DNA of 64,000 nt, taken from contig JAUCBJ010005958.1 of NCBI GenBank assembly GCA_032718475.1, positions 21,146 to 85,145 on the forward strand, given 5' to 3'. Source of the DNA: Nemertoderma westbladi (Eukaryota; Animalia; Xenacoelomorpha). The notes under the pieces were generated by a model. That model was not told the DNA's origin. It did not search any database and was given only the letters and a program-made list of their open reading frames with translations. The translations under genes were made by a program, and so were the position numbers. Positions 5,041 through 54,184 of this stretch are shown here, piece after piece (positions within the stretch are counted from its first letter, which is position 1; each line of letters starts with the position of its first letter).

Positions 5041-5919
5041 TTATTTTATCTTGCAAGAACTCTTTAGAGTTTCCTTATCACACTTTTTGTCATAGATACC
5101 ATCATCGGGACATATGTTTCCATCGTCTTTATCGCTTCCAGGAACCTCACAGGCTGGCTGCAGTAAACCCAAACTATACTGACCATCTTTTGGAGTAGCT
5201 TCTGGAGCCTGGAAACAAAACGACGGTTTTCCGGTCTCTTCCAACACGTTAGTCGGGCCACGAACAGCGCAACTACGCAGATAATCACGAGCTAGCCCTG
5301 ACTCGACCTTCCTCATCTCCAACCTACAACCCCACGTCACTATGACATAGGGTCGTTGCCGAGAAACCAATTTCGATGGCGTAATGATGTGTTTCCTAAG
5401 ACAAGAACGAGCTACTGCCTTCAATTCATCAACCTGTTGTTTTGAAGCGCATGGATGGTATAGAAACACAGCAGCCCCATGTTCCAATGAGTGGATCCAT
5501 CTTTGTGGTGGGCAATATTCATATTCCCCATAGCGTGGCCACAATGGGCGATGGGGACCGCTCATCGGTAACCCATGGTAACAAATTTCCTCCGATAGAC
5601 ATTTGTGAAGAGGCTCTTTTGTTTCGTTTTCACAAATTATTTCCGAGATGATTTCCTCATCACTTGATTCCTCGGAACTTTCTTCACTCGAGTCGGAGGC
5701 TTCATCACAGCTGTAGGCCTCCTTATTGCAGTACCAGTCAACCTCGATCCCATGATTAGCATCATCACAGTCGCTGTCTGAAATACCCATAGAGATACCA
5801 CCATGCTCCGTGTCTGCAGGATTGATCGCACTACCTGAATTAGCATCAATGGCGAACAATGCAGTGTTCATAGAGAGCGCGAATATAGCAGCCAAATAAA
5901 GTCTAAAGAGATAGCCCAT
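5041..5919 (-). CDS. TP53I13: TP53I13-like / DUF3105-domain secreted protein, single exon
   Basis: ATG at 5919, hydrophobic signal-peptide-like N-terminus, conserved SGPHRPLWPRYGEY..PPQRW.HSLEHGA.VFLYHPC and CLRKHIITP..WGCRLEM motifs. The symbol denotes homology; orthology is not shown. Confidence 0.8.
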   Translation of the reverse strand: MGYLFRLYLAAIFALSMNTALFAIDANSGSAINPADTEHGGISMGISDSDCDDANHGIEVDWYCNKEAYSCDEASDSSEESSEESSDEEIISEIICENETKEPLHKCLSEEICYHGLPMSGPHRPLWPRYGEYEYCPPQRWIHSLEHGAAVFLYHPCASKQQVDELKAVARSCLRKHIITPSKLVSRQRPYVIVTWGCRLEMRKVESGLARDYLRSCAVRGPTNVLEETGKPSFCFQAPEATPKDGQYSLGLLQPACEVPGSDKDDGNICPDDGIYDKKCDKETLKSSCKIK

Positions 5920-6506
5920 TATCAAGTTTGACTATATCATATTATATTAATTCACACAACACAGCTCGTTGTGATTTAACAACTAAATTAAAGTATTAAA
6001 TTACTGATTATATACCTCTTTGTTTTCAAAAGTACTTTATCATTTATTTATTTGTTATTATACCTTTTGCCACCCATAGCCAATTACTGGCGAACCCTTT
6101 CAGGTTGGCTGTAACTGTTGTAAAATACGGATTTGAAGTAAAATATAGCAATTTATGCAAAATCTGGCATTTTTTTGGGACTTAGGGAACATTTATCCTT
6201 ATCTTAATGTATCTTTAGATTTCATGTGACCCAAATATGTTTGAATGCCCCCAATTTTCATGCAGTCCAAGACACAGGTACATAGGGATATTTCACGAAA
6301 AAGTTGTTGGGTTTGGGGGTAACAAGATGCCCTGAATCGAGCCGCGGGGTGTTTTTGTTGAAAATGTGGAAACGGTCGATGGAGGGATGAAGTTATCCAA
6401 TATGAGCCTAATTTGAAAGCAGGAGCTATTGGCTATGGCAGAAGTGATGTCATAAAATATGGAAATCTGCCTGTAGGCTATGGAGAGTGATTCAAATACA
6501 TATTAA

Positions 6507-7996
6507 CCCTATTAGTACCGGGCTATAAAATGTTGTACAAATACCGGGGGTGTGGTCATATTGACCCCTCACTCAAAAATCTACAAATTTTAACAAAACG
6601 TCCGATTTTTTGTTTGTCGTAGATCTCACTAGTACAAATCCGACCGAGAAAAAAATGTCGAATAGAAGTACTGGGGTGGTAATATTGCAGCACCAAAATT
6701 ACAAGTAGTGCACAATTTTCATAAAATTTGAAAGTTATAATTTTCGGCTAATTGTTTTTCAATACAGGTTTTTTGGGCGCAAAATCCATTGGAAACTGTT
6801 TAAAAATGATCTGATTACTATGAATGGCTGTTTTAGTCCTCTACTTATGCAAAAAATGAAAAAAACAAGTAACCATCAGTTTTCAGTTTGAACACAACAT
6901 TTTTAATTCACTTATACGATGCTATAAATTCACATTTTTTAGGTTATCTTGGGCGCTGATTCTAATGGAATACATTTCTAATTTGCTAGATCACTGCTAA
7001 TTGTATTTTAAAAGTACAAGTTTGAGATGTCCAGTGCTGTTTTTATTGATTCCATCGGATTCAGGACCCTCATAAACCCGTATAACGCAAGAAAGAAAAA
7101 TGATACTATCCTTTGATCAAATTTGCTTATTTTCAAAAATTTGGTGCTGGCACAACAATTTTCACCCACCGGCGAAAAATACAGGTTTGAAAACTCTTAT
7201 GGAATTTGTACATATTCCATTGAATTCAGAACCTTAACAAACCCATATAACGCAAGAAACAAGGCGATACAATCAATTAATATATTTGGTGGTTTTCAAA
7301 ATTTGGTGCTAGCACAAAATTTTCCACCCAGTTCCGAAAAATACAAGTTTGAGATGTCTAGTTAGATAATTATTTATTTCATTGAATTCAGAATCGCCAT
7401 AAACCTCTAAAACGCGAGAAATAAGTTGTCAAAATCAATTTAACTATTGAATGGATTTTCAAAATTTTGTGCTGGCACCAAATTTTGCACACTTTTTTGC
7501 ACACAATTTTGATACTCCTGGTGCAACTCGTATATATTCCATCGAAATCTGAGCCCCAAAAAACCCCTATTGCGCAAAAAAAGGTTCAAAAAATCAATTT
7601 ACGAAATTGACATATTTCAAAATTTGGTACTAGCACCAAAATTGGCACCCGCCGAAAAAAACAAGTTTGAAATTTCTAAATTTATTTAGAAGAATTCCAT
7701 ATAATTGCAATCACCAAAAAAACCGGTGTAAATAAAAAATAGAGATGTTACAAATAATATTTAATGAAATGTAATATTCAAAAAACGCCTCAAAAAAAGT
7801 GCCAAAAGAAGGGTTAAAAAATGGTGCTATAACTCGAAAACTTCCCAATATTTTTGAAAACCGTTTTCACTATTACGAAGACAATAGATTTTTAGGTAAA
7901 GTAACAAAATTTCAGATCCCCAACTGCGTTTGTTTCAGAGTTAATACAAAAAAACCACGGGAGGGGTCATATTGACCCACCCCGGGTTTAATAGGG
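6507..7996. mobile_element. Non-autonomous piggyBac element with internal ~163-bp tandem repeats
   Basis: TTAA|CCCTATTAGTACCGGG ... CCCGGGTTTAATAGGG|TTAA (TSD at 6503-6506 and 7997-8000), subterminal GGTCATATTGACCC at both ends, and about 4 repeat units at 7015-7680. Confidence 0.88.
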
Positions 7997-9428
7997 TTAA
8001 ATGTCAATCTTTCCACACCTGTTTTATAACAATATGAGAGATTCTTGTGCGTCTTTTGCTATTCATGAAGAGGAACGTTCACAAAATGAAAAGAAGTTTG
8101 ATCTCACACTTTATTAAACTACAACATTTCCCACTTTATTAAACTACAACATTTCCAAATTTAATTAAACTACGTTTCAGCTAAATTTTCCGACCTTCAA
8201 AGACTAATAATCTGCTTGTTATAAAGTCATCCTTATAATATCAAATCTACCAGAAAAGGACAAATTTTGGTTTAACTTTCAAGAGTTTTAATTAAATTGT
8301 CGAGAATTTTATGTAAAATACAAAACGACATTTTATTAAAAGTTTGGCATTTGGCAGCATTTTGGTCAAATAAAATTTACGGTGTTCATGAAATAATAAT
8401 AATAGGTCTATAATATCATAGATATCTTTATCACGAGCATATTGGAGTTTTGCTTTGATTATCAAAAAAATTCATCATAAATCTGTTCATATTCCCATGA
8501 TTCACTGCCATTATTTATCATATAGATAAATGATAACAATTCTGAATAGGCCTACATATTTATATATCTGATAAACAATGACAACATCTCGAAGGATACA
8601 ACCAAATTTGGTCAGTTCTCATGTTGGTTAAGGGCCCCCCTATTGTTGCATTATAGCCATATTACACGATTCCGCCCTCATCAATAACGTCATGGAGTCA
8701 ACCATGACTTTATTTTATTTATTTACGTTAAACATTATGGCCATGTATGGCCATTTCCCATGACTCTAGAACTATCATTCAGACTCAGGAGTCCATAATA
8801 ATGTGGGGCGAGTCAAAACTGCGAGCCATCAGCAAACTGTTTTAATTATACTTGGCCATTTTCTGAAAGTCTGTGTTGGGGTGTGTGTGTCAGTGTGTCG
8901 GAAGCCATAATATTGTCGGAAGCCAATATCAGAATAGGCCTATATAACTAGCCATAGTATAATTATAACTGTTCTCTTAGATGTCTTGCAGCTTTTGCTG
9001 CACGAACGCCCCACACGTGTACCGTGTGTACTGCATTGTACTGCACAACATCAGCTTTTACATGCTTGACAACAACACACTGATCTGTTTCTGATTCTGA
9101 TCTGATAACATTCTGATCTGTGTGAGGTTGGAAATATAAATCTCGTGCCAAATAGAAAGAGGAATCACCTTCTCCAATTTACTTTCAGTTAATTTGGCCA
9201 CTTTTCTATAGAGCCTGGTCCACTGTGACACGGTGCGGCTGTTTTATCAAATGTTCTAAAACATTAACAACGGCAACCACATTGTTCAACAGTTCCTTCC
9301 TTGAACCTTTGCGCATAACCGCATCTTGATTACCATAAACACAACAAGCAAGGTGCAGTTCACCCAAATGCAAAGTAAAATTTGCGGGTAACCTGCGGTA
9401 TACACTATACAGTTCTTCTCTCTATATA

Positions 9429-9877: not shown

Positions 9878-10689
9878 GTTTTGAATGCTATTTGAAGATA
9901 ATAATTTATTACTCGGGAAAACGTATAATTTTTTCACTAATCTCGAGGTATTTCAATTAGCGAATGCCAGCGAGTTTAATTAAGGGTCGAGATAAATCGA
10001 AAAAAATAATGTTCTACGTTTTTTCCCATGTAATACAGTACGTAATTTTATTTGTAATTTTAATACGTAATTTGTACGTGTTTTAAATACGTACTTTTGT
10101 TGCTTTTAAGTCTTTAATAAAAGATAGAACGAAATAGTGTTAGAAAATAAATTGAATTGCAGTGTTTTACTAAATTTCTTCCTTAGATACTATAACAGCT
10201 TTTGAATGTGTGCATAAAATAATAAATATCGTACAACACAATTTAACAATTTAAAGTAAATCAAATATCTCGAATGTTCTACATTAATTAACTCAAATAA
10301 ATAATTATTATTAATCTGCCTAGACTTTATTTTTGCGCACGTTTGTGGACAAAATGGGGATATTTTAAAGATAACGTTTATTTATATAGCTATACAGTAA
10401 CTTAAGGTTATTATTAGAATCACATAGTTTATTACTGTATTTAAATTTGAATGAATGATATTATTTATGACTTTATTATGTAATATATAAGTGATAATGT
10501 ACAGTTTGAGTACTGCAGTAGGCCTAGTGCTGTTTGGTTTTTGCTAATAAACACTTTAATCTACTCTAAAATTTAACGATATAATATTTTATATATTTGA
10601 TATTTTGTTGATGAGTTCAGTTTCGTGACCGCGAGTCTCTCTCCTTGGATGGTTTGTCTGGATCGATCGGTTTGTCTATTCGGTCAGTT

Positions 10690-13600
10690 ATGTCTCAGGG
10701 CTCAGGGCAGTCGTCGTCCCAACGGTGCTGTCAGTGTGGGATCCGCGCTTGTACCACTTCTAGTCGTTGTCGTTGTGTCCGTGCCGGGCAACCCTGCACC
10801 AGCTGCTCGCCTTTGTCTGTTGGCAATTGCCTGAACCCGCATCTCATATCGGGGGCCTCCATTAGTCCCATAGTGGATGACACTCTGCCGCATGAATCCA
10901 CTGGCGACAACTCGGATGGGGATAGCTCGGATACTGATTCGTTTTCGAGTGCGATAATGCAGATAACTCAGATTCCCCGAGTCGTCGACACCGTTTTTCC
11001 TCCGTTATCTTTGCCTGGGAGTGCGAGTTCTCCTCCTTTCCCTACCACTGTGGAGCTTTTGGAGTCGGCCTTCGGTGGCCAGTGGTTAAACTCTCCTGGC
11101 TCTTCCACCGATCCGTATTGGGAGGCCAATTATTCCCGCCTCACCTGCCTTACTTGTTGCCAGTATATTGTGCCGGGTGGCAATGTGGGACGCAAAATCG
11201 CCGACTTAGTCGCTCGCGAGCTGGTATTTCTGACGGACGGTATCCACCCCTCGGAACGATCACTCTGTTGCGTGGCTACCATATTCCAGCGAGACCCAGA
11301 CGTGACAAAAAGTGCGGATATTCGGCGTACTATGCTGCGCCGGATTGGCATGTGGGAGCGAGAGGAGTATAAGCAGCTGGTGGTGGAGGCGGAGCGCTGC
11401 AGCTCCAAGTTCGCTAAGTCCCGGGGATCGGCAAAAGTAAACCCGGGTCGGTTGTATAATCGGAAAATACTGGTGGGACAGAATCGGGCGGCAGTTCGTC
11501 TCATTACCGAGAGGGACAGTGGTGGAATTTTAGACCCCAATTCCCAGGCAGAGGGGCGAGCACCTGGGATTACCGTACGTGAGGTTCTGGCGGAAAAACA
11601 TCCCCCTCAGATGCAGGTTTCGCCGGACGCGTTTGAACCCTGTGACGACCTACCAGCCTTCGAGGATGTCGACATTACTGGTCAGCACGTCCTCAAGGTT
11701 ACTCGAGTGCTACGTGGTGGAGCTGGTCCGATCGGCGGAGACGCCGAATTATGGAGTGCGTTGCTTACCCGCTACGAGGCGCACAGCTCCCGCCTCAGGG
11801 AGGCCGTCGCCGGGTTGGCTCGACGCCTCGCCAACTCGGTGGTACCTTGGGGCGAGATCCGCGCGCTGCGTGCCTGTCGCCTCGTCGCAATTGACAAGGA
11901 ACCCGGTGTCCGCCCCATCGGCATTGGGGAGGTCCTGTACCGGCTGCTGACTAACTGCCTCACAGCCGCCACCAAGATGGATTTCATCGTGGAATGCGGG
12001 GCGGATCAACTCTGTGCGGGTGTTAAGGCGGGTGTTGAGGGCGCCGTCCATGCGATGGCTTCATTGTATGAGGACGACTCCACCGAGGGGATGCTCCTCG
12101 TAGACGCCTCTAATGCCTTTAACAGTTTGAGTCGCCCCGTGGCCCTGTGGAATGCGCGGGTCTACTGGCACCGGTGTTCCCGTTACCTCTTTAATGCATA
12201 CAACGGCCACGCCGCTCTCTTCTTACAAGGGTCTGATGTACCGCTCTGGAGCAGGGAAGGGTACACCCAGGGCGACCCGGCCGCCATGCTTGGGTATGGC
12301 TGTGGGACCCTTCCCATGATACGGAGGCTACGGGACATCCGGAGACCTGAGTGTCCTGGCAACCCGCCGTCGTCCCTACCTGGCATCCCTTCGTCGACCC
12401 TGCCTGGTAACCTGCCGTCGACCCTGCACGGCGACTCGCCATCGACCGTACCCTGCAACTCGCTGTCGACACTATCCGGTAACTCGCCGTTGACCTTACC
12501 CGGCAACCCGCAGTCGACCCTACCCGGCAACCCGCCGTCGACGCTACCCGACAACCCGCTGTCGACCCTACCCGGCAACCCGCCGTTGACCCTATCCGGC
12601 AACCCGCCGTCGACCCTATCTGGTAACCCACCGTTGATCCTACCTGGCAACCCGCCGTCGACCCTACCCGACATCCCGCCGTCGACCCTACCCGGCAACC
12701 CGCTGCTGACCCTACCCGGCAACCCGCCATCGTCCCTGCTTGGCGACCCGCCGTCTACCTTACCCGATAACCCGCCGTCGACCCTACCCGGCAACCCGCC
12801 GTCGACCCTACCCGGCAATCTGCCGTCGACCCTGCCTGGGGACCCACTGTCAACCCTACCCGGCAACCCACCGTCGTCCCTGCTTGGCGACCCGCCGTCT
12901 ACCTTACCCGATAACCCGTCATTGACCCTACCTGGCAACCCGCCGTCGACCCTACCTGGAAATCCGCCGTCGACCCTGCCTGGTGACCCGCCGTCAACCC
13001 TACCCGGCAACCCGCCATCGACCCCGCCTGGCGACCCAACACCGCACCACCAAAGACAGTGCTGGTATGCCGATGATGCCTCATCTGCTGGTTCCCTCGC
13101 TGGTGTGCTCCGTTGGTGGGAGGAGTTGCTCCTCAGTGGACCCCGAATTGGGTACAACCCGGAGCCCACCAAGTCCTACTTGGTGGTGAAACCGGCGTAT
13201 GTTGAGCAGGCACACGAGATGTTTGGGAGGTCGGGCGTTCGGATCGTCTCCGGTCACAGGTTTCTGGGCGGTTATGTTGGTGATTCCCAGGGGCTACGGG
13301 GTTTCATCGCGGAGAAAGTTGCGGGGTGGGTCTACAGTATCGGTAGATTGGCGGAGGTGGCCGAGGATTATCCCCAGACCGCTCATACGGGAATGTCCCG
13401 CTGCTTACAAGCGGAGTGGGACTTCCTGCTCCGGGTGGTTGAAATCGACGATGAGGATTTGGCTCCGATCCGGGAGGCGCTGCAGCACAGTTACATCCCG
13501 GCATTGTTCGGGATACCCCTTGGTGCTGTTGACGAAGACTTGGTTCTTTTGCCAGTCCGACACGGTGGGATCGGGATTCGGGACCCGTTAATGCGACGGT

Positions 13601-14592
13601 GCCACGCTAGAGAGGCGTCGCTGGCCGGCACAGCTGGGGTGGTTGATGCGCTGCTGTCGGACCGCCCCCTCCAGGTCGCAGACCACGCCACGTGTCTCGC
13701 GTCGGCCCTCGCTGAAAGCCGCATTACCCAAGAAGCGGCTTACAAGGCGAGACTGGAGTCCGCCCTCCTCGCTGTTCCTGCCGAACGGCGCCGCACGGTG
13801 GAGCGCACGGTCTCCCACAAGACGGGAGGGTGGCTGACCGCTCAGCCTTCGGCGGTGGACCACACCGACCTGGACCCCGAAGTGTTCCGGGACAACCTTG
13901 CCTTGCGGTATGGGTTGACGCCGCCCGGCCTCCCGGCTAAGTGCGAGGGGTGTGGGGAGTCTTTTTCGACGTCCCACGCCCTTAATTGCAAGTCGGGGGG
14001 CTTGATTATCAAGCGGCACAACGAGGTGCGGGAGGTCTTCGGGGACTTAATCGCGTCCGCGTTCGGGGGCTCGTGCGTCCAGCGTGAGGTTACGCTGGCG
14101 TCCGGCTACCTGGACAGACAGGGCCGCGAGGTGGGTGGAGTAAGGGCGGACCTTCTGGCGAGGGGAGTCTGGGCCGAACAGAGGGTGGCGTCATTTGACA
14201 TTGCGGTTGTAAACGCTGACGCCCCCTCTTATGTTAACCGGTCCCTAGACTCCGTTCTCCAGCAGAGGGTCCGCGCCAAGAAGGTACACTATGCCGCAGT
14301 GTGCGAGGACCGTCGGATCTCCTTCACCCCCCTAGTCGGAACCACCGACGGGGTGTGGTGCAAGGAGGCCGATATCCTAATCCGCCACCTCGCGGAGACC
14401 CTGGTGGCCCGGCAGCGTGGGATGCGCGAGCGAGGCCTAGCCTGTGTGCTGGGCGGAGTGCGGAGGCGCCTATTGTTTGCGCTGCTGCGCTCAAACTCCC
14501 TGTGCCTGCGTGGCGGTAGGCGGCCATGGAGGGCGCTCGGGTTTGGGGACGGTGCCGGTCTGCGGGGGTTTGACCTCCAAGACCGGTACTGA
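10690..14592 (+). CDS. Intact single ORF of a CRE-clade-like non-LTR retrotransposon (Cys-rich N-terminus, RT, CCHC knuckle, restriction-like endonuclease)
   Basis: First ATG at 10690. RT motifs GVRPIGIGE, LLVDASNAFN, QGDP, WYADD and FLGG; CEGCG..HALNC zinc knuckle; RHNEV and RADL..FDIAV PD-(D/E)xK RLE motifs. No stops over about 1300 aa, and GC-rich relative to the flanks. Confidence 0.9.
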   Translation: MSQGSGQSSSQRCCQCGIRACTTSSRCRCVRAGQPCTSCSPLSVGNCLNPHLISGASISPIVDDTLPHESTGDNSDGDSSDTDSFSSAIMQITQIPRVVDTVFPPLSLPGSASSPPFPTTVELLESAFGGQWLNSPGSSTDPYWEANYSRLTCLTCCQYIVPGGNVGRKIADLVARELVFLTDGIHPSERSLCCVATIFQRDPDVTKSADIRRTMLRRIGMWEREEYKQLVVEAERCSSKFAKSRGSAKVNPGRLYNRKILVGQNRAAVRLITERDSGGILDPNSQAEGRAPGITVREVLAEKHPPQMQVSPDAFEPCDDLPAFEDVDITGQHVLKVTRVLRGGAGPIGGDAELWSALLTRYEAHSSRLREAVAGLARRLANSVVPWGEIRALRACRLVAIDKEPGVRPIGIGEVLYRLLTNCLTAATKMDFIVECGADQLCAGVKAGVEGAVHAMASLYEDDSTEGMLLVDASNAFNSLSRPVALWNARVYWHRCSRYLFNAYNGHAALFLQGSDVPLWSREGYTQGDPAAMLGYGCGTLPMIRRLRDIRRPECPGNPPSSLPGIPSSTLPGNLPSTLHGDSPSTVPCNSLSTLSGNSPLTLPGNPQSTLPGNPPSTLPDNPLSTLPGNPPLTLSGNPPSTLSGNPPLILPGNPPSTLPDIPPSTLPGNPLLTLPGNPPSSLLGDPPSTLPDNPPSTLPGNPPSTLPGNLPSTLPGDPLSTLPGNPPSSLLGDPPSTLPDNPSLTLPGNPPSTLPGNPPSTLPGDPPSTLPGNPPSTPPGDPTPHHQRQCWYADDASSAGSLAGVLRWWEELLLSGPRIGYNPEPTKSYLVVKPAYVEQAHEMFGRSGVRIVSGHRFLGGYVGDSQGLRGFIAEKVAGWVYSIGRLAEVAEDYPQTAHTGMSRCLQAEWDFLLRVVEIDDEDLAPIREALQHSYIPALFGIPLGAVDEDLVLLPVRHGGIGIRDPLMRRCHAREASLAGTAGVVDALLSDRPLQVADHATCLASALAESRITQEAAYKARLESALLAVPAERRRTVERTVSHKTGGWLTAQPSAVDHTDLDPEVFRDNLALRYGLTPPGLPAKCEGCGESFSTSHALNCKSGGLIIKRHNEVREVFGDLIASAFGGSCVQREVTLASGYLDRQGREVGGVRADLLARGVWAEQRVASFDIAVVNADAPSYVNRSLDSVLQQRVRAKKVHYAAVCEDRRISFTPLVGTTDGVWCKEADILIRHLAETLVARQRGMRERGLACVLGGVRRRLLFALLRSNSLCLRGGRRPWRALGFGDGAGLRGFDLQDRY
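12355..13038 (+). repeat. 24-bp coding minisatellite (~28 units, consensus PGNPPSTL)
   Basis: Unit CCCGGCAACCCGCCGTCGACCCTA repeated in frame; a 144-bp block is duplicated (landmarks 12733 and 12877). Confidence 0.95.
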
Positions 14593-15885
14593 ATCCAAGT
14601 TTTAGACTTGTGTTTGGTGGAGGGATGTAAAAATTCTTACTAAATTTAATTTTGGTGGTGGTGGAAATTAAAATTAAAAATTGTATTTGTACAGGATAAC
14701 TCCAAAATTTAAATTTGAATTACATAATTTGTACTTTTGGTAAATAATTAAATAATATTTCGAGGCTTAGAAGCGAAACATTTTCATATATTATATCTTT
14801 ATTGTGGTTGACTGTGGTTATTAATCTTATTCTGTCTTATGTAAGACAAAGTTATTTTATTTCCTACTGTACATAAATAGCAAAATGAACATTGTTACAG
14901 TATTACCGTAGTACAGTGCAACACAATCTGAATTACCGGTAGTGCATTAGTAGGCCTATATTTTCTATCACGAATTATGAGAAACAAATAAATACTGTAG
15001 TAATAAATCACTTCCGAATGAGAAGAATTCATCCATTTCAAAGGCTTTTCAGACAGATGTATAGCTCGAGAAAGGATGCGATGTAGTGATAGCAATCATT
15101 AGTGAGTCAGCTTACGTCGACATAGCAACGAAATGCAGCGGATTAATGGAATAAATTAAATATATACTGTACGCCTCTACACGATAATATGGACAGCTGT
15201 GACATATCTTAACATAGTGTAGCATTCAACAGTTAATCTATTCTAATTCATAGGGAAGTGAAACCAAGACTTAGGCTGTTTGGTGTGGAAAACATTTTAA
15301 ACTATCGATTGTTTCATTTAATTGGGTGGTGACAATTCAAAAACATTTGAGGGGATTATCGACGGAAATAATTCCACAGTTAATTACTCCCGAAATAAAA
15401 CTGTTACCTTTCTATTGACTTTCGTTTATTGTTTGGGTTGGAACAACGTGGATTTGACTTCCTATGTTTTTTTCATTTATAAATAAAATTATGTTAAAAA
15501 TACTCTTTGTTGAGGCGTGTCAAATCGATAAAAGTAATATTTTGCTATTAATAACTTTATTACAGTACTTAATTACATATTACATTATGACCCAAACGAA
15601 AACAGTATGTGCCATGGCAAAACTCTGAGGTTACTTGTAAGAGAGAAGATCTTAAGATAACCTACAAACTTAAAACCGAACAACCAACAACCGAAAACAT
15701 TAATCGTATTAAACCCCGGGGGGGGGGGGGGGGTAAATATGAACCCCCCCGTGGTTTATTTGTTATAATTCTAAAACAAACGCAGTTGGGAATCTGAAAT
15801 TTTTTGACTTTTCCTAAAAATCTATTGTTTAATATGTTATAGTACATTATGATAATGCTCTCCATGGCGAAAAATATAGGCTCGA

Positions 15886-15929
15886 ACCCGGTACCTAGGT
15901 TTCAAACTTCCGGTTATCATCAGCCGAGT
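15886..15929 (-). ncRNA. Putative minimal type I hammerhead ribozyme
   Basis: ACUCGG-CUGAUGA-U AAC CGGAA GUU U-GAAA-CCUAGG-UA|CCGGGU: 6-bp helix I, intact core, palindromic helix III (ACCUAGGU) and a GUA triplet. Helix II is weak (U-U closing). Confidence 0.6.
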
Positions 15930-16103
15930 GTGTGTCCTCTAAGACCACTGAGCTACCAGGGCGGTAGAAGATTTATTCGCTATGGAGTGGGCTACGTTGT
16001 ACTTTCCTATGAGTGATTGAAAAAAGGCCTAAATATGATAGCCCACTCCATAGCGAATAAATCTTCTACCGCCCTGGTTGCTCAGTTGTCTTAGAGGACT
16101 CAC

Positions 16104-16147
16104 ACTCGACTGATGATAACCGGAAGTTTGAAACCTAGGTACCGGGT
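16104..16147 (+). ncRNA. Putative minimal hammerhead ribozyme, second copy
   Basis: Same core (CTGATGA 16110-16116, GAAA 16130-16133, GTA 16139-16141), with one mismatch in helix I next to the core. Confidence 0.5.
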
Positions 16148-19100
16148 TCGAGCCCCAATAGGGGCGGTTGATATTTTTCGCTATGGAGGAGCATTATCAT
16201 AATGTACTATAACATATTATATTTAATTCGCCGTCACCCACCCCACAACAATTCATTTATAAAAATCTATTGTCTTCCTAGTAGTGAAAACCGTTTTCAA
16301 AAATATTGGGTAGATTTCGAATTATCGCACCATTTTTTAACCCTACTTTTGGCACTTTTTTGAGGCGTGTTTTGAAAATTATATTTCATTAAATATGATT
16401 TGTAACATCTCTATTTTTGATTTACACCGGTTTTTTGGTGTTAGCTATTGTATGGAATTCATATAAATTAATTTAGAAGTTTAGTTGTTTATAAGAGATT
16501 TAGATTTTTGTTCTGAATTCAATGGAATATATAATTATCGAACTAGACATCTTAAACTTGTATTTTTCGGAAGTGGGTGCAAAATGTGGTGCTAGCACCA
16601 AATTTTGAAAACCATCAAATATATCAATTGATTGTGTCACCTTGTTTTTTGCGTTATACGGGTTTGTGAGTGTTCTGAATTGAATGGAATCAGTAAAAAT
16701 TTCCTAAGAGTTTTCAAACTTGTATTTTTCGCCGGTGGGTGAAAATTGTTGTGCCAGCACCAAATTTGAATCTGAAAATATGAATTTATAGAATCTTATA
16801 AGTGAATTTAAAATTTTGTGTTCTAACTGAAAAGTGCTGGTTACTTGTTTTTTTCATTTTTTTCCCACGCAGAGAGGACTAAACAGCTATTTATAGTAAT
16901 CATATCCTTTTTAAATATTTTCCAATGAATTTTGCGCCCCAGAAAACCTGTATTGAAAAACAATTAGCCGAAAAATGTAACTTTCAAATTTTGTGAAAAT
17001 TGTGCACTACTTGTAATTTTTGTGCTGCAATATAACCACCCCAGTACATTTTTTCGAAAATGTTTTTGGTCGGATCCAGACTAGTGATACCTACGTACAA
17101 ACAAAAAATCAGACGTTTTTGTAAAAATTTGTTGAGAAGTGGAAAAATCACTTCAGCAACTTGCTTGGGCAGCCACCAAACATCGAGGTCAGCCCTACAA
17201 GGAAAATACATGACAAGACACTACACTATCTATAGAAACAGGGGACTTCACACTTGCCGAACTCCAAAGAAGCATTAAAAGCATGTCCAATAATAAATCG
17301 AGTGGATTAGATGAAATCCCAGCGGAGGTATGGAAAACCGGAAAACCGGAAAACAGACCATTATTGAATGTTTGCAACCGGATGTTAAAAGGGGAAAAGC
17401 CAACACCAATTTGGACTAAAGGTCAACTAAAGCCTCTTCCCAAGAAAGGAGACCTCGGCATACCAACAAACTATCGTGGGATCTGTCTGCTTGTGGTAGC
17501 TGCCAAAATATACAATAAAATGATTCTATATAAGATTAGGCCTCACATAGAGAAACTACTGCGTAAGAGCCAAACGGATTTCGACCAAGTAGATCAACAA
17601 TAGCTCAGATACTTGCACTACGGAGAATGATTGAAGGAATTAAGTCAAAGAATCTCCCCGCAGTCATGACTTTTGTGGATTTCAAGAAGGCATTCGACTC
17701 CATCCATAGAGTTAAAATGCTTGAAATCCTAAGAGCTTATGGAATACCAGAAGTAATTGTTGCTGGCATTGGATTGTTATATTGTGACACAGAAGCGCAG
17801 GTACTCTCACCAGATGGTGAAACTGAGTTTTTCTCAATCCTGGCTGGCGGACTGCAAGGTGAGACATTAGCACCATTACTATTTGTAATTGTGCTGGATT
17901 ATGCGATGAGGACGGCCACAAAGGGTGAAGATCTGGGATTCCACTTAAGAATGCAGAAGCAGTATAAATCCGGCAACTACAGTCACAGACACCGACTTTG
18001 CGGATGACATCGCCCTGCTCTCTAATACGCTAGCAGATGCACAGCTTCAACTAAATAAAGTGGAGAGGGCTGCTAAGGAGGTTGGATTGCATATAAATGC
18101 TACCAATACCGAATTCATGACCTTTAATGTTGATGGAAACCTGACAACCATTGATAATAATCAACTAAGGAAGGTCGACGACTTCCAGTACCTTGGATCA
18201 TGGATAGAGAGTAGTAAAAAGGACATAGAAGTTAGGAAAGCAAAGGCTTGGGTAGCTCTATCAAAAATGGATACCATCTGGAAATCAGATCTCACCAGGC
18301 ACCTGAAGACTAAGTTATTTCAAGCCACAGTGTAAAGTGTATATTTATACGGGGGTGAGACCCGGACACTGACTAAATCACTTGAACAACGAATTGATGG
18401 TTGCTACACACGACTACTAAGGGCAGCCCTAAACATCAGCTGGAGACAACACATGACAAACGCCGAGCTTTATGGTACAATACCACCTGTATCAACCACC
18501 ATCCGTGAACGCAGATTAAGATTCAGTGGGCACTGCTGGCGAAGTAAAGACGAGGTCATACCAGATCTACTTCTCTGGCAACCAACTCATGGAAAGCGTA
18601 GCCGTGGACGACCTGCCATAACATATGTAGATCAACTTGAAAGGGATACTGAACTTGGGAGAAACGAAATTGCGACAACTATGGAGAATCGGGAAGCCTA
18701 GAAGGATCTCATTTCCACTGTCCGAGTTCGCTCGACCTAGTAGTAGTACATTATGATTTACCGAGAGAAAGCCGCCCCAATATTAGATTATTACAACAAC
18801 ATATCCATTGGGTAAGAAAGTGGAGGAGAGCCAGCCCGTCTCTTAATTTTTTACTTTATATTACGCGATCAATTTTCACTCATCTCGTCATGAACCCAAC
18901 ATGTATGTAACCTTTTGTTAAATTTGTTGGCTATGCGTTTGCGGTTGTTTGGGCGGAGTGTGGTAGGCCTACACTTTTCACACTTAAATATTTTGGTTGT
19001 GAAATGTTACAGGGCATAGCTATCTGAGATATTTCATTTATATTTTATTATGAGAGGAAGAAGAACATACAACGTTATTTACTATATATGTAACAAAATA

Positions 19101-30350: not shown

Positions 30351-31914
30351 GGAGACTCTGCCAGCAATCAGAATAATAGGAGAATCGCCACTCGTATCTT
30401 GACAATCACCACTACTAGTGACAGCTATACATCTTTGGAAATGGGGTGTCCAGTACTTGGCAGTACTGCTGAAGAGGCCTAAAGCCGGCCGAAACGCCGT
30501 TTCTATTAATGGTTTATTATTATTATACTGCATAAAGAATCAATTACATAGCCTCCCTATACATACTGTATATATTACATTATATAAAGTAGGATAGAAT
30601 AAATTACTGTTTTCGACACAATGTAGTGCCACAATCACTACACAATTATATTTAATTATAAATTGAATTGATATTATATTGTATCAATAGGGTGGGGGGG
30701 GGGGGGGGGGGGGGGGAGGGTAATATATAAAACTAATAAAAGTGTCAAAATTAGCTTCCACAGCAGTGTTTATTTAAATATATTTAATATATATATTATT
30801 AATAGATTTTACCTCGTTGCTATAGTTACCTGTGCTAGAAATAAAAATAAATAGGATAAAAATAAATAGGGTAGTAGATGCAAAAAATAATTAATTCATG
30901 GCAAAACCTAGAAATTTTATGTTTGCCCGGTTTCCATGGAAACGCTCCGGTCAAATTTGCTTAAATTTTTTTTCTGAGGTTTCTATGGCATATACTACCA
31001 TTTTATTGAAAAAAATTTCGGGGCCGAAAAAATAACACTAATGCGGTTCCGTGTATATTTAGTATTCCATGGGTAGGGGGGTAACTGGACGCAATAAATT
31101 TCATCCCTCTCCAGGGGAAATTCGACGCAAATAACAGATGATTATTCTCAAAAATAAACTCTAACCTGTTCTATTGTGTTTAGTTTATTGTTTTGGTTAA
31201 AATAACGTGCCACTGTAACCTGTTCCTTTCCCGAAATTGAAAATTTAACATTGAGGCGGGATATCAATTCGTCAAGATGGGATTTGCGTCCAGTTTCCTC
31301 CCTGTCTCTAAAAATTCTGTCACCACCCAAATCAATGGAGTGAAAAGCATTATATTGCTCAGTAATGCATATTGACCATAAAGCAAGTTGACGGTTATGT
31401 CGTTCCAAAAGCACGTAAGATCCAACTACCCTCCAGACAAGTACTACAAAGATATTGATATTACCATTTATAATACAGTCATCTCATCAGGAAATGTCTG
31501 ATGTTATGAGCACTACTACTATTAATACTACTATAATCGGCCTGCTGCATTTTAGCGCACTTGATATGCTATGCTGACTTACAAACAACTGGTTTAAATA
31601 AAACAATGCAATCCACAAACGGTATGCTGATAATGCAGTATGCATTAAGAATGCTGTCATCTTATCGACTAACTTGTACGCCATAACTATCTATCCCACA
31701 TGATGTTCGCGAGATTCTCCCCCATTTTTAAGGCCAGTCACATTTAAGAGGCGTCTGAAGAATATCATGGGCTGTCCACTAGAGTCCAGTGTCCACCATG
31801 CTTATTCTCTCCATCAGGATGCCAAAGCACACGATGGTGGAGCACACACACAGTCTGGTAAATTTTCGAAAGCAATGTCGTGCCAATATGAGTCCCCTCC
31901 AATGATATATTAAT

Positions 31915-38185: not shown

Positions 38186-38425
38186 CGATTATATTGCGTT
38201 CAAATATATACGCATTCATTGGTTTATCTCAGAGAATCAATTACTGCCAATCCTTACACATGGTAGGCTCTACAATGTTGAAGCGAAATCATTGTGTTCA
38301 ATGTGTTTTAGGAAACTAAAAAGTTTATTGTGTCAATTGTGACAATTCCCTTACTGTATTCACTGCTCACTCCGTTCAAATGAAAATAATGAGATATAAA
38401 TTAAATTAATTTGCTGACAAAAAAA

Positions 38426-38544
38426 GCCTACAACACTTGGTGTTCCCTGGCGGTCTCCCATCCAAGTATTAACCAAGCTCGAAGGGCCTTAACTTTCGCT
38501 GATCGGACGAGAAGCGGTGCTTTCCCCTTGATATGGTCGTAGGC
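38426..38544 (-). rRNA. 5S rRNA: Orphan 5S rRNA gene or recent pseudogene (119 nt plus T7 terminator)
   Basis: GCCTACGACCATA...TTCTCGTCCGATC...AGTTAAG...TTGGATGGGAGACCGCC...GTTGTAGGC followed by TTTTTTT; helices I, III and V pair. Confidence 0.92.
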
Positions 38545-50806: not shown

Positions 50807-51475
50807 ATATTGAAGGCCAATAATTATTGACAATATTGAACGGGAGTTCTAATTATTTGTATTCAATATTATAATTTTTACTATTGAATGTGCGTGCACG
50901 TTGGAGCTGCCTGCTGCTCGCAGAACACATGTTGCAGCACATCATTAATACTGCGACGATCCATCCTATCCCGCCTGTTCTTCCCTGGTTGCTGCATTTT
51001 GAATTATATTAGTCCATTCAGTTTATTGATGTTTCCCTTATTGCACTCCATCTATAATATTATGATGTTCCTTGATATGATGTATCTTCAAATTTACGCC
51101 TTTGAAAGTAAATAAATTGACAATTTGTTTCAAAAGTTGATTTACATTAAAAGGTTATAACTCTGGAATAATAATTATTAATAATATTAGTTTTAGTAAA
51201 TATTTATTTAAATCAATTTCACTTTCCACTATTATTATGATGGAATTTATAGTTTGTTAGTTAATTAAATATAATATATATATATTATTATATATATAAT
51301 TAATCATATTATTTTTATATATTGTAGGGAGTCTCTTATTCAGTGATTTTATTGATTAAGGAAAATTGATTTGTAATTCTTGATATAATTATCATTAAAC
51401 ATAATTTATAACAATTTACACATCACTGAAAATGGTGCAACTGTGATCTCTCCGATGCTTATTGACTAAGGAGTA

Positions 51476-54184
51476 ATGGCATGGAATTTTGTCACTTATT
51501 CTATTGTGGTGATCTTAGCTTTTATCGCATACATTCCATTTGGAGAAGGGGCGACTTGTTCCGCTCTTGTAAAACCATGCAAAGAGAATGGTGGCATTCT
51601 GATTCCGGCATGGAAACCAATACAAACTTCACGAACAGATACAGCATTCCGGGCCATTGTCTACTTCCTCTCTTTGTGCTATTTGTTTGTCGGAATCGCC
51701 ATCGTCGCAGACAAATTTATGGCTGCAATCGAGAAGATTACCTCAAAGGAAAAACTCGTTACAGTGAAGCGACCAGATGGGTCTAAAGTTATTCTAAGTT
51801 TGCAGGTCTGGAATGAAACCGTCTCCAATCTTACTCTTATGGCTTTGGGTTCCAGTGCCCCAGAGATTTTACTGTCTGTTATAGAAATTATTGGTAATGA
51901 TTTTCAAGTTGGAGAACTTGGTCCATCCACTATTGTCGGGTCGGCTGCATTCAATATGTTTGTTATTATCGCGATCTGTGTGGTCAGCATCCCTAAGGGT
52001 GAAATACGAAAAATCAAACATCTTCATGTATTTTTCGTAACAACTACTTGGAGTCTATTCGCATATATATGGCTATTACTTATTATTTCTGTTATATCTA
52101 AAAAAGAGATGGATATTTGGGAAGCTATTATAACATTAATATTTTTTCCAATTCTTGTTATAATTGCGTACTTTGCGGATAAAAAAATTTACATGTTTCA
52201 TTTTTTGCAGAAAAAGTTTAAGCCCAAGAAGATGGAATATTTAAATGGACCTAAAGGTGAAACTAATCATGGTGCTAACAGTTCAGCACCAGCAGTGACC
52301 AACCATGCCAATGGTGAACCAAAAGTTGAAATCATTGTCAGTCCACCGACAATGCCGCCTATGGACATGACGAATAGAATAGCACATGAGAAACAAATGG
52401 AATACATGAAAATAATTCGAAAAATGAAACATCTTCACCCAATGGCCGATGCTGACACTCTGCAGACATTAGCAGAAGATGAACAACATGCAGGTAAAAT
52501 AAAGTCCAAAGCTTATTACAGAATGAACAAAAAGAGAAAATCTCTTTCAAGGACGAGCGTGACCAAACCCAGAGCATCTGATCAAGCCGATACTTCACCT
52601 CCAGCCGACAAAATCTCTGTTAAACCAGATCAGTACACTGTTTTGGAGAATGTAGGAATTGTGAAAGTCATAGTTGTGCGCGAAGGACCTAGTTTAGCAT
52701 CAAGGGTGAGTGTAGATTATACAACTGTCGATGGCACAGCTACAGCTAACAATGATTATATTCCAGTCTCTGGAACCCTAACATTTAAACCAGGTGAAAC
52801 AACTAAGGAAATTCCAGTTAATATCATTGATGATGACGAGTTTGAAGAAGATGAGCATTTTCGGGTAATTCTAAGCAACATTCGTGAAGAATCACCAAAG
52901 CCTGGCGATCCTCCCACTGAAATTGCCTTCCCTAATGCAGCCTTTATTACAATATTGGACGATGATCATTCTGGAATTTTCTCGTTTGCACAGCATAAAA
53001 TTAATACACCAGAGGACTGTGGCACTGTTGAACTGAAAGTTGTGCGCCATGGTGGAGCCAGGGGCTGCATTCATGTACCTTATTTTACAGTAGATGGAAC
53101 TGCAGAAGGACAAGGAAAAGACTACATTGATGAGAAGGGAACATTGCAATTTGCCAATAATGAAACTTGGCAAACACTACAAATTTCTATTATCAATGAT
53201 GATGAATATGAAAAGAATGAGCATTTTTTTGTTGAGTTAGGAAAACCTCAAAAGGTAAAACGAAAAAATTCTGATTCTGGATCTATCATTTATGACAGCA
53301 AAGCTTCAGACATGAATGAATCGACACATCGAAGCGATAACAATGGATCTGTTGATTCTGCTACTGACACTCTTACTGGTATGCCGATTCTGGGTTCAGT
53401 GTACCGGTGTATGATAGTAATTGAGGAAAATATAGAATTTAAAAATGCTGTTGATCGTATGTTGAGAAGCACAAAGCAAATAGCAACTGGTGAATCAGCA
53501 TCTGATTATATGAAACAATTTACAGATGCATTTAAAGTTCGCCCAGATGCTGAGGAAGATGACGACTCAGTTCCATCTTATGGCGAGTACGTCGGACACT
53601 TTTTTGCATTATTCTGGAAACTATTATTCGCATTTATTCCCCCAGCCGGAATTTGCGGTGGTTGGTTGTGTTTCATAACCTCCATTGTTGTTATCGGTGT
53701 AATGACAGCAGTAGTGGGGGATGTAGCAGGTGCTTTCGGGTGCACAATCGGCCTAAAGGATTCGGTAACGGCCATATCTTTTGTCGCTGTCGGGACAAGT
53801 GTCCCTGATACATTCGCCAGCAAACTCGCCGCGATTGGTGACCGCTGGGCTGACAGCAGTATAGGCAATGTAACTGGTAGTAACGCTGTCAATGTGTTCC
53901 TGGGTATAGGAGTGGCCTGGTCTGTTGGGGCCATTGTTAACGCTGCAAGAGGGAAAACCCTAGAAGTCGACCCAGGACCTTTAGGCTTTTCCGTTGGTCT
54001 GTTTTGCGGTTTCGCAGTCTTTTGCGTTATTGTGCTGATGGCTCGTCGTTTTACTCCATCAATTGGAGGCGAGCTTGGTGGTCCTACGGGTGTAAAGTAT
54101 TTTACGGGTTTATTGTTTTTTGGGATTTGGGTAGTTTATATACTTCTATCCGGGCTTAAAGATTACTGCTATTTTGATGATTAA
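51476..54184 (+). CDS. SLC8A: Sodium/calcium exchanger (SLC8/NCX/Calx family), intronless CDS, 902 aa
   Basis: Signal peptide, alpha-1 ALGSSAPE, two Calx-beta domains (IIDDDEFEEDE, ILDDD; IINDDEYEK), alpha-2 GTSVPDTFASK..NVTGSNAVNVF and C-terminal GGELGGP. Confidence 0.97.
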   Translation: MAWNFVTYSIVVILAFIAYIPFGEGATCSALVKPCKENGGILIPAWKPIQTSRTDTAFRAIVYFLSLCYLFVGIAIVADKFMAAIEKITSKEKLVTVKRPDGSKVILSLQVWNETVSNLTLMALGSSAPEILLSVIEIIGNDFQVGELGPSTIVGSAAFNMFVIIAICVVSIPKGEIRKIKHLHVFFVTTTWSLFAYIWLLLIISVISKKEMDIWEAIITLIFFPILVIIAYFADKKIYMFHFLQKKFKPKKMEYLNGPKGETNHGANSSAPAVTNHANGEPKVEIIVSPPTMPPMDMTNRIAHEKQMEYMKIIRKMKHLHPMADADTLQTLAEDEQHAGKIKSKAYYRMNKKRKSLSRTSVTKPRASDQADTSPPADKISVKPDQYTVLENVGIVKVIVVREGPSLASRVSVDYTTVDGTATANNDYIPVSGTLTFKPGETTKEIPVNIIDDDEFEEDEHFRVILSNIREESPKPGDPPTEIAFPNAAFITILDDDHSGIFSFAQHKINTPEDCGTVELKVVRHGGARGCIHVPYFTVDGTAEGQGKDYIDEKGTLQFANNETWQTLQISIINDDEYEKNEHFFVELGKPQKVKRKNSDSGSIIYDSKASDMNESTHRSDNNGSVDSATDTLTGMPILGSVYRCMIVIEENIEFKNAVDRMLRSTKQIATGESASDYMKQFTDAFKVRPDAEEDDDSVPSYGEYVGHFFALFWKLLFAFIPPAGICGGWLCFITSIVVIGVMTAVVGDVAGAFGCTIGLKDSVTAISFVAVGTSVPDTFASKLAAIGDRWADSSIGNVTGSNAVNVFLGIGVAWSVGAIVNAARGKTLEVDPGPLGFSVGLFCGFAVFCVIVLMARRFTPSIGGELGGPTGVKYFTGLLFFGIWVVYILLSGLKDYCYFDD

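What the first reader, a model, noticed from the sequence alone, without database searches (positions are those of the whole stretch)
15829..16259. tRNA-framed hammerhead ribozyme, duplicated as a mobile foldback: candidate Pol III retrozyme/SINE
Seen: each arm reads GCCCTGG, A box (TAGCTCAGTGG in the left arm), hammerhead core (CTGATGA..GAAA-CCTAGG-TA), then B box (GGTTCGAGCC); the right arm ends in AGGGGCG. The ribozyme motif therefore lies where a tRNA anticodon arm or intron would be, and its helix I 3' strand overlaps the T-arm/B box. The right unit is further closed by outer stems (ACCGCCC/GGGCGGT; TCCATAGCGAA/TTCGCTATGGA), giving a ~145-nt rod. The two units point away from each other, and the whole insert has a 14-bp TSD. 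Known: minimal hammerheads with palindromic helix III occur in Penelope-like elements and metazoan non-LTR retrozymes, where they can cleave as dimers; Schistosoma Sm-alpha links a hammerhead to a SINE-like repeat. Inference: a Pol III-transcribed, self-cleaving small mobile RNA that may switch between tRNA-like and ribozyme folds. I do not recognise this architecture as described. Weakness: helix II has only 3 bp with a U-U closing pair.
Basis: partly seen in the sequence, partly recalled or inferred. Interest (0 to 1): 0.85.

Follow-up and report, generated by a model that had tools for sequence, protein, structure and literature searches.

The report
Hammerhead nested inside a tRNA promoter
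This is one mirror-image insertion of an abundant small jumping repeat of an invertebrate, in which a predicted self-cutting hammerhead RNA sits in the middle of a tRNA-derived promoter sequence, and its ends suggest that a Penelope-type retrotransposon enzyme likely copied it.

Summary
The 431-bp insert sits between two 14-bp repeats, and a paralog of the host repeat shows the empty site. It is a 265-nt unit plus an inverted partial copy. Each arm carries a type I hammerhead between the A and B boxes of a tRNA-Lys-like frame. Hundreds of contigs from the same species hold the family. Common variants lie at tolerant hammerhead positions (N7, loop II, a helix I wobble).

1. The layout is not a foldback. 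An inverted arm, a one-sided 40-nt AC-rich tail and a long TSD are the Penelope-like (PLE) insertion signature.
2. A tRNA/ribozyme fold switch is unsupported, because the cloverleaf pairs are broken.
3. It is not a plain SINE. About 75 nt of family sequence lie upstream of the tRNA start, and a T5 terminator precedes the tail, so a simple Pol III transcript cannot be the template.

Best reading (0.55): a PLE-mobilised retrozyme carrying its own Pol III promoter, which the predicted cut would split. Main rival (0.27): the end repeat of a coding PLE. Cleavage and expression are untested. The scan noted the same nested design on other DNA of this genome.

The parts
15815..15828 (+). Target-site duplication, left copy (14 bp, AT-rich, inside an abundant host repeat)
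16260..16273 (+). Target-site duplication, right copy; the element's 3' end is ambiguous by 1-3 nt (other copies align to 16260-16262)
15830..15994 (-). Inverted, 5'-shortened, tail-less arm (165 nt). Intact A box, 6-bp helix I, core, B box and T5; lacks 15 nt holding the T-stem and acceptor 3' strands
15995..16259 (+). Direct arm (265 nt), the longest part of the family unit seen here; four substitutions private to this copy (16079, 16087, 16100, 16109)
15995..16070 (+). Family sequence upstream of the tRNA-like start; includes the 44-nt 'spacer' 15995-16038
   Evidence: covered by many contigs in all four runs
16046..16188 (+). Outer 12-bp stem (16046-16057 with 16177-16188) closing a 147-nt rod
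   Evidence: one possibly compensatory variant pair 16054/16180, not phased
16071..16166 (+). tRNA-Lys-like frame: acceptor strands 16071-16077 and 16159-16165, with the hammerhead in place of the anticodon and variable arms
   Evidence: 48 of 52 viral loci with the same frame motif are tRNA-Lys; pair table
16078..16088 (+). A box; two private changes in this arm, consensus form in the left arm (15955-15945) and in the family majority
   Evidence: box consensus recalled
16104..16147 (+). Type I hammerhead motif, right arm: helix I 16104-16109/16142-16147 (base pair mismatched in this copy), core 16110-16116, helix II 16117-16129, GAAA 16130-16133, palindromic helix III 16133-16140, predicted cut 16141/16142
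15886..15929 (-). Type I hammerhead motif, left arm, all helices paired; predicted cut 15892/15891
16145..16154 (+). B box; overlaps the 3' strand of helix I and is predicted to pair with the GAAAC strand in an inactive hairpin
16174..16178 (+). T5 run, the only T4+ run in the unit: predicted Pol III terminator
   Evidence: PMC3141230
16220..16259 (+). One-sided 40-nt tail, 65% A+C, absent from the inverted arm: PLE-type tail
   Evidence: PMC11167929, PMC3846280, PMC8557442

Best explanation
The insert is one Penelope-style insertion of an abundant repeat with no long reading frame in the part seen, in which a predicted hammerhead ribozyme is nested inside a tRNA-Lys-derived promoter sequence, and it is likely a non-autonomous retrozyme copied by a Penelope-like reverse transcriptase. 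Shown: the insertion anatomy, the family's abundance, the nested motifs and the pattern of variation. Inferred cycle: (1) Pol III likely starts near 16060-16071 of a master copy; the A and B boxes act as DNA signals and the RNA need not fold as a tRNA. (2) Most transcripts would stop at T5, giving a ~110-nt RNA that cannot be the template. A minority would read through into a tandem neighbour, or a Pol II read-through would supply the long RNA. (3) Hammerheads in successive units would cut after 16141, most likely as dimers through the 8-nt palindrome and perhaps with protein help, and a host ligase would close the monomer. (4) The cut falls between the boxes, so a linear monomer starts with the B box and ends with the A box; only a circle, a multimer or uncut RNA gives back a whole promoter. 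(5) A PLE protein would nick AT-rich DNA, start reverse transcription at the AC-rich tail, run back through the unit and beyond the Pol III start, and leave a 5'-truncated arm, an inverted tail-less arm and a 14-bp duplication. This copy has since decayed; its right arm is probably dead.
For: PLE signature: inverted 5'-truncated arm, optional 30-40-nt tail and long TSD as described in PMC3846280, PMC8557442 and PMC11167929. In runs X3/X4, 8 of the 15 joints shown (16 found) are strand inversions at different points. 15 of the 32 pieces listed end at 16246-16262, 8 of them at 16260-16262 (some are one locus seen in several runs). Ribozyme constraint: the family majority makes helix I fully Watson-Crick (16106 T>C 71% of depth, 40 contigs; 16109 A>G 99%, 49 contigs in X3). 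The common changes inside the motif are at N7 (16114; 8/3/7/1 contigs in X1-X4) and loop II (16122; 46-67% of depth). No variant row falls at 16130-16149 among those shown. Promoter constraint: the majority A box is consensus, and the one B-box variant listed is the tolerated purine exchange (16150), while cloverleaf pairs are lost. Non-coding: the only ATG frame through the motif closes after 29 and 27 codons, the N7 variant destroys that ATG, and 1-3-nt deletions are common downstream. The canonical 6/4/2-bp motif is the retrozyme type, whereas animal PLEs mostly carry minimal motifs (PMC4209133, PMC7761336). Retrozymes are linked to PLEs in bioRxiv 10.64898/2026.07.22.740005. The left-arm double hammerhead scores -22.4 kcal/mol against -3.5 per monomeric hammerhead.
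Against: No head-to-tail joint is among the 15 shown, though one would be invisible if the monomer is longer than the 265 nt held here. What lies upstream of 15995 and beyond the tail in master copies is unknown, so a coding parent is not excluded. T5 stopped human Pol III completely in vitro, with some leak in cells (PMC3141230). The hammerhead fold costs 9-14 kcal/mol over the free ensemble in a monomer. The best dimer is an inactive duplex (-34.2 against -22.4), and the B box pairs with the GAAAC strand in three of four contexts folded. Rfam scores are below threshold. Eight of nine Xenopus retrozyme dimers did not cleave in vitro. No two-sided covariation in helices I-III was seen. Rare breaking variants exist (C3, U4, A6; at most 2 contigs per run). 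Summed depth over short overlapping contigs hides rare variants in the core, and only contigs at least 80% alike were laid. No PLE protein gene was tied to the family.
Confidence: 0.55

Rival explanations
1. The unit is the pseudo-LTR of a protein-coding Penelope-like element that built a tRNA-Lys frame around its hammerhead; this insert is a severely 5'-truncated stump of it.
For: The anatomy equals PLE stumps. A9 lies 26 nt before the cut, the same distance as from the start codon to the cut in the anole element PAc. The tail spans 104-144 nt from A9, near PAc's RT start at 111-118 nt. An in-frame ATG sits in the core. Earlier unchecked notes on other genomes found tRNA-headed pairs to be ends of coding PLEs.
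Against: The frame closes after 27-29 codons in both arms. It would have to run through the B box, acceptor strand and T5. The N7 variant removes the ATG and frameshifting deletions are common. The long contigs listed at the tail have low depth (about 20-50 in X3, against thousands summed over the unit) and no shared continuation showed among the loose ends displayed (12 of 180 shown). The motif is canonical, not minimal.
Confidence: 0.27
2. A conventional tRNA-Lys SINE transcribed by Pol III from dispersed copies; the hammerhead is a relic or a passenger.
For: Consensus A and B boxes, tRNA-Lys-like frame, many dispersed copies, long TSD.
Against: About 75 nt of shared sequence precede the tRNA start; T5 precedes the 3' end; no poly(A) or LINE-like tail; frequent inversions. 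Variation spares the catalytic core.
Confidence: 0.08
3. A bistable RNA that switches between a tRNA-like cloverleaf and the ribozyme.
For: Helix I uses the anticodon-stem 5' strand and the T-stem 5' strand, so the two folds exclude each other; both cost a similar 14 kcal/mol in the right arm; some copies restore the D stem (16097 G>C, 7 contigs in X3).
Against: No tRNA call by ARAGORN or Rfam. Two of five T-stem pairs are broken with no restoring variant listed, there is a 6-nt insertion after the D arm, and the major 16122 variant breaks the anticodon stem. The predicted competing fold is a rod, not a cloverleaf.
Confidence: 0.05
4. A foldback or MITE-type DNA element with a chance hammerhead match.
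For: 31-nt perfect inverted repeats near the ends.
Against: A 40-nt one-sided tail separates the right repeat from the TSD; inversion points vary between loci; the descriptor has 0 hits in 100,000 shuffles.
Confidence: 0.03

Closest known systems
Sm-alpha / Sj-alpha SINE-like hammerhead retroposons of Schistosoma (passages in PMC6765202, PMC2770079; Ferbeyre 1998 and Laha 2000 not read)
   Same: tRNA-derived Pol III promoter plus type I hammerhead in a small, abundant non-coding repeat; promoter ends up mispositioned in the cleaved monomer, so multimers are needed.
   Different: Described as a promoter followed by a hammerhead, tRNA-Gln-derived and often still called as tRNA by tRNAscan-SE. 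Here the hammerhead lies between the boxes of a tRNA-Lys-like frame, the T-arm strand forms helix I, the cut would split the promoter itself, and no tRNA is called.
Metazoan non-LTR retrozymes (PMC7229834; PMC7761336; bioRxiv 10.64898/2026.07.22.740005), notably axolotl HHR_Amex2
   Same: Canonical type I hammerhead, 2-bp helix III with tetraloop, U-U at the base of helix II, non-coding unit of a few hundred bases, long TSD, PLE link.
   Different: Those are said to carry no promoter (PMC7761336) and are defined by tandem units and circular RNA, neither shown here; their circles are mostly predicted to leave the ribozyme unblocked, whereas here the B box is predicted to block it.
EN+ Penelope/Poseidon elements (PAc of Anolis, PMC11167929; Pen2a of Adineta, PMC3846280) and non-autonomous PLEs such as MRC1 (PMC8557442)
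   Same: Inverted 5'-truncated arm, optional 30-40-nt AC-rich tail, long TSD at an AT-rich site, hammerhead about 100-140 nt upstream of the tail.
   Different: No RT/EN frame seen; tRNA-derived A/B boxes and a T5 terminator instead of a TATA/Inr-like promoter.
tRNA-derived SINEs; Helenus/Ajax small-RNA-derived non-autonomous LTR elements (PMC10886601, listing and two passages)
   Same: tRNA-derived internal promoter in a non-autonomous retroelement.
   Different: The 5' end does not coincide with the tRNA start; no LINE-type tail; no LTR structure; carries a ribozyme motif.

Membership tests
Type I hammerhead ribozyme | Conserved core CUGANGA / GAAA / UH with helices I-III | tested here: met
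   Left arm meets the descriptor; right arm has one mismatch at the base of helix I, repaired in the family majority
Type I hammerhead ribozyme | Rfam gathering score | tested here: not met
   HH9 18.8 and 13.7 bits against 52
Type I hammerhead ribozyme | Two-sided covariation in the helices | tested here: inconclusive
   Only one-sided compatible change in helix I; contigs cannot be phased
Type I hammerhead ribozyme | Self-cleavage | not testable with these tools
   Folding predicts competing inactive structures
PLE-mobilised element | Inverted 5'-truncated arm next to a direct arm | tested here: met
   8 of 15 joints shown are inversions
PLE-mobilised element | One-sided 30-40-nt tail and shared 3' ends | tested here: met
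   16220-16259
PLE-mobilised element | Long TSD at an AT-rich site | tested here: met
Autonomous PLE | RT plus GIY-YIG reading frame linked to the repeat | tested here: inconclusive
   None in this copy; no genome is held, so other copies could not be read
Non-LTR retrozyme | Non-coding unit of about 150-450 nt with a type I hammerhead | tested here: met
   At least 265 nt, non-coding in the part seen
Non-LTR retrozyme | Head-to-tail tandem copies | tested here: inconclusive
   0 of 15 joints shown go back; invisible if the monomer is longer than this copy
Non-LTR retrozyme | Linear and circular monomer RNA in vivo | not testable with these tools
   No RNA run could be laid
tRNA-derived SINE | A and B boxes in a tRNA-derived region | tested here: met
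   box consensus recalled
tRNA-derived SINE | 5' end at the tRNA start and no terminator before the 3' tail | tested here: not met
   About 75 nt upstream shared by other copies; T5 at 16174-16178
Sm-alpha / Sj-alpha family | Complete tRNA-derived promoter followed by the hammerhead | tested here: not met
   Hammerhead lies between the boxes; Sm-alpha layout taken from a review, primary papers not read
Foldback / MITE | Inverted repeats at both termini, fixed structure | tested here: not met
   One-sided tail, variable inversion points

The most novel reading that the evidence does not exclude
A self-promoting animal retrozyme whose ribozyme is built out of its own promoter. The B-box strand is at once Pol III signal, helix I and a lock on the catalytic core. 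The cut splits the promoter, so only re-ligated circles or multimers found new active copies. Most Pol III transcripts stop at T5 as ~110-nt half-ribozymes made from dispersed copies, which would act in trans as dimer partners that trigger cutting of the rare long template. A Penelope enzyme then copies the circle from its tail.
Probability: 0.25. Interest if true: 0.8.

Novelty: new variant of a known kind. Interest (0 to 1): 0.52.

Why it matters
Two open points about animal retrozymes are what transcribes them (a 2020 review says they seem to lack promoters, PMC7761336) and which enzyme pastes them back (PLEs were proposed from co-occurrence and homology). This family offers a built-in Pol III promoter and a Penelope-type insertion footprint in one 265-nt unit, so both become testable. 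The nesting, with a promoter box serving as a ribozyme helix, was not found in my literature searches. The tRNA-plus-hammerhead idea itself is known from schistosomes, which caps the novelty.

Tried and rejected
No genome is held for this window, so copy number, tandem arrays and a coding parent could not be read; the window holds no other copy. No RNA holder was listed. Pattern scans for relatives gave only chance matches: 0 of 17, 0 of 13 and 0 of 67 loci hold a hammerhead by a relaxed descriptor that does find the left arm; these collections hold little animal DNA. Look-ups of earlier findings by sequence and by relatives found no look-alike, so I cannot say that the arrays noted elsewhere in this genome are the same family. 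Depth was not used as copy number. The higher depth over the core than over the A box may reflect 5' truncation, inverted arms that start inside the core, diverged heads or contig overlap; not resolved. Whether copies tend to begin at the cut site is unclear: one solo copy starts at 16139 and joints lie at 16143, 16145 and 16149, but others at 16101-16124 and 16151. A rod spanning the whole 265 nt was rejected (33 of 300 shuffles). The pairing of A box with CUGA seen in the right arm rests partly on its private changes and is absent in the left arm. The host could not be placed: its Na/Ca exchanger has best hits at 42-49% identity, led by hemichordate, acoel and echinoderm proteins and one mite record. 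Lunse 2017 was not available and the supplement of PMC7229834 could not be read; either may hold similar motifs.
Full report
Setting. The window is animal DNA (LINE fragments, an intronless Na/Ca exchanger whose best database hits are at most 49% identical). The host is an invertebrate that I could not place. No genome is held, so the family was studied through Logan contigs of four coded runs of one species, three samples.

Observation. The sequence is as described. A 431-bp insert, 15829-16259, lies between two copies of a 14-bp AT-rich motif. A second copy of the host repeat at 7780-8010 (-) has the motif once (172 of 199 bases identical), and contigs skip from 15814 to 16260 (4, 3, 7, 0 contigs in X1-X4). 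The host repeat is very abundant, so these show the empty state but not polymorphism at this locus. The insert is a direct arm of 265 nt (15995-16259) and an inverted arm of 165 nt (15994-15830) joined head to head. The inverted arm lacks the first 44 nt, an internal 15 nt and the last 40 nt.

The hammerhead motif. Both arms hold CUGAUGA, helix II (U-U plus three pairs, 5-nt loop), GAAA, a 2-bp helix III inside an 8-nt palindrome, GUA and a 6-position helix I (numbering recalled). A descriptor finds only the left arm in 64 kb, with 0 hits in 40 shuffled windows and 0 in 100,000 shuffles of the stretch between the boxes. Rfam's best match on each arm alone is Hammerhead_HH9, aligned over the whole model but under threshold (18.8 and 13.7 bits against 52); the 3-kb scan did not report it. 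By the definitions in PMC4209133 (passages) this is the canonical metazoan type I motif, expected to need dimers. The U-U closure with a 2-bp helix III occurs in axolotl HHR_Amex2 (PMC7229834, passages and part 4 of 6).

The family. 2,277, 1,390, 1,243 and 88 contigs lay on the 571-nt stretch, flanking host repeat included; 608 and 59 lay on the 296-nt stretch without it (X3, X4). Copy number is not determined. The right arm's odd letters are private: the majority restores the A box (16079, 16087) and helix I (16109), and turns the U-G pair at 16106 into C-G. Within the motif the common variants are at N7 (16114; 8/3/7/1 contigs) and loop II (16122; 46-67% of depth). Breaking changes at C3, U4 and A6 occur in at most two contigs per run. 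No row at 16130-16149 is shown (42 rows hidden, 4). The one B-box variant listed is G>A at the purine position (8 contigs in X3, 1 in X4). This pattern fits selection on both ribozyme and promoter in the master copies. It is not proof: only contigs at least 80% alike were laid, depth is inflated in the core, and no two-sided covariation was seen in helices I-III.

The tRNA frame. A pattern taken from the frame matched 52 viral loci; ARAGORN tRNA-Lys, 3 Arg and 1 Met, and the arms align to them with the hammerhead replacing the anticodon and variable arms. These are viral tRNAs, so the isotype is a likely assignment only. The cloverleaf is not kept: 1 of 4 D pairs, 2 of 5 anticodon pairs and 2 of 5 T pairs are broken in the right arm, ARAGORN finds nothing, and the 16122 variant breaks one more. 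The T-stem 5' strand is instead complementary to the anticodon-stem 5' strand, forming helix I. I read this as a tRNA kept as a DNA promoter and remodelled as a ribozyme scaffold (inference). A fold switch to a tRNA shape is not supported.

Folding. The unit folds as a rod closed by a 12-bp outer stem (z -5.1; 0 of 300 leader/trailer shuffles). One variant pair, 16054 C>T and 16180 G>A, has similar depth in X3 and would be compensatory if linked; 16051 T>A has no listed partner. Against easy cleavage: the monomeric hammerhead costs 9-14 kcal/mol over the free ensemble, the B box pairs with the GAAAC strand (probability 0.9-1.0 in three of four contexts, 0.4 in the fourth), and the best dimer is an inactive duplex (-34.2) rather than the double hammerhead (-22.4, left arm). 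These models ignore tertiary contacts. PAc's hammerhead cleaves only with its protein (PMC11167929, parts 1-2 of 4), and 8 of 9 Xenopus dimers did not cleave (bioRxiv 10.64898/2026.07.22.740005, parts 1-3 of 5).

How it moved. An inverted 5'-truncated arm, an optional 30-40-nt tail on one side and a long TSD are the PLE signature (PMC3846280 and PMC8557442, passages). In PAc the tail is the stretch between two internal RT start sites in an AC-rich region, and the endonuclease prefers AT-rich DNA. The tail here is 40 nt and 65% A+C, though it has no predicted stem-loop. Other loci agree: 8 of 15 joints shown are inversions, six joining 15994-16049 to 16101-16149, and one loose end reads as the reverse complement of the spacer, that is head to head. 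15 of 32 listed pieces end at 16246-16262. This rules out a foldback element.

What the template was. A Pol III transcript would start near the tRNA start and stop at the T5 run at 16174-16178, the only such run; T5 was a complete stop for human Pol III in vitro and slightly leaky in cells (PMC3141230, passages). Yet inserted copies carry about 75 nt upstream of the tRNA start and about 80 nt beyond T5. The template was therefore longer than a single Pol III transcript on both sides. Either it is a multimer or circle made by read-through, as proposed for Sm-alpha and retrozymes (PMC6765202, PMC7761336, passages), or it is the RNA of a coding PLE. I favour the first (0.55) because the part seen is non-coding and the motif is of the retrozyme type. 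The second (0.27) stays open: the spacing from A9 to the cut equals PAc's start-to-cut distance, no tandem joint was seen, and I could not read beyond the ends of the unit.

Comparison and novelty. It works like Sm-alpha and the metazoan retrozymes, and it was inserted like a PLE. It fails the tests for SINE, foldback and Sm-alpha membership; retrozyme membership is inconclusive. Sm-alpha is described as a promoter followed by a hammerhead and is tRNA-Gln-derived (PMC2770079, passages). A hammerhead nested between A and B boxes did not appear in six searches (listings, plus two passages of PMC10886601). The library lacks most subscription papers; Ferbeyre 1998, Laha 2000 and Lunse 2017 were not read, the supplement of PMC7229834 could not be opened, and Repbase could not be checked. 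Earlier unchecked notes of this scan report the same nested design in tandem arrays elsewhere in this genome, and tRNA-headed PLE ends in other genomes; I could not verify them or tie them to this family.

Verdict. A real, abundant mobile element with an unusual nested promoter-ribozyme; a new variant of a known kind; interest 0.52.

Noticed in passing
window 10615-14592 (+): A 1,325-codon open frame in a GC-rich stretch that reads like a non-LTR retrotransposon with a C-terminal restriction-like endonuclease (CRE/NeSL-like by eye, recalled motifs). An in-frame minisatellite (about 12355-13040) interrupts the presumed RT domain without closing the frame. Pfam gave no match to the whole or to two parts.
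   Followed up: partly
window 30469-30505 (+): A second hammerhead-like core with a 4-bp G-C helix II but no helix I; it fails both descriptors. It lies at the end of a Thr-rich repeat frame; possibly a decayed PLE-type motif.
   Followed up: partly
window 38425-38544 (-): A lone 5S rRNA gene, 99 bits.
   Followed up: no
window 51470-54184 (+) and 5041-5931 (-): Single-frame, apparently intronless genes for a Na/Ca exchanger (no relative above 49% among the listed hits) and a DUF3105 protein.
   Followed up: partly
window 6580-8000 (-) and 15700-17135 (+): The host repeat: a very abundant family with internal ~162-bp subrepeats, two copies in the window; unclassified.
   Followed up: partly
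window 56768-57350 and 58964-64000: Minisatellite and satellite arrays, the second with a period near 147 bp.
   Followed up: no
runs X3/X4 laid on window 16062-16168 and 16251: Four joints leave the unit at the same point, 16062, and rejoin at 16124-16168, deleting the A box and part or all of the ribozyme; one copy has a (CAA)n expansion in the tail.
   Followed up: no
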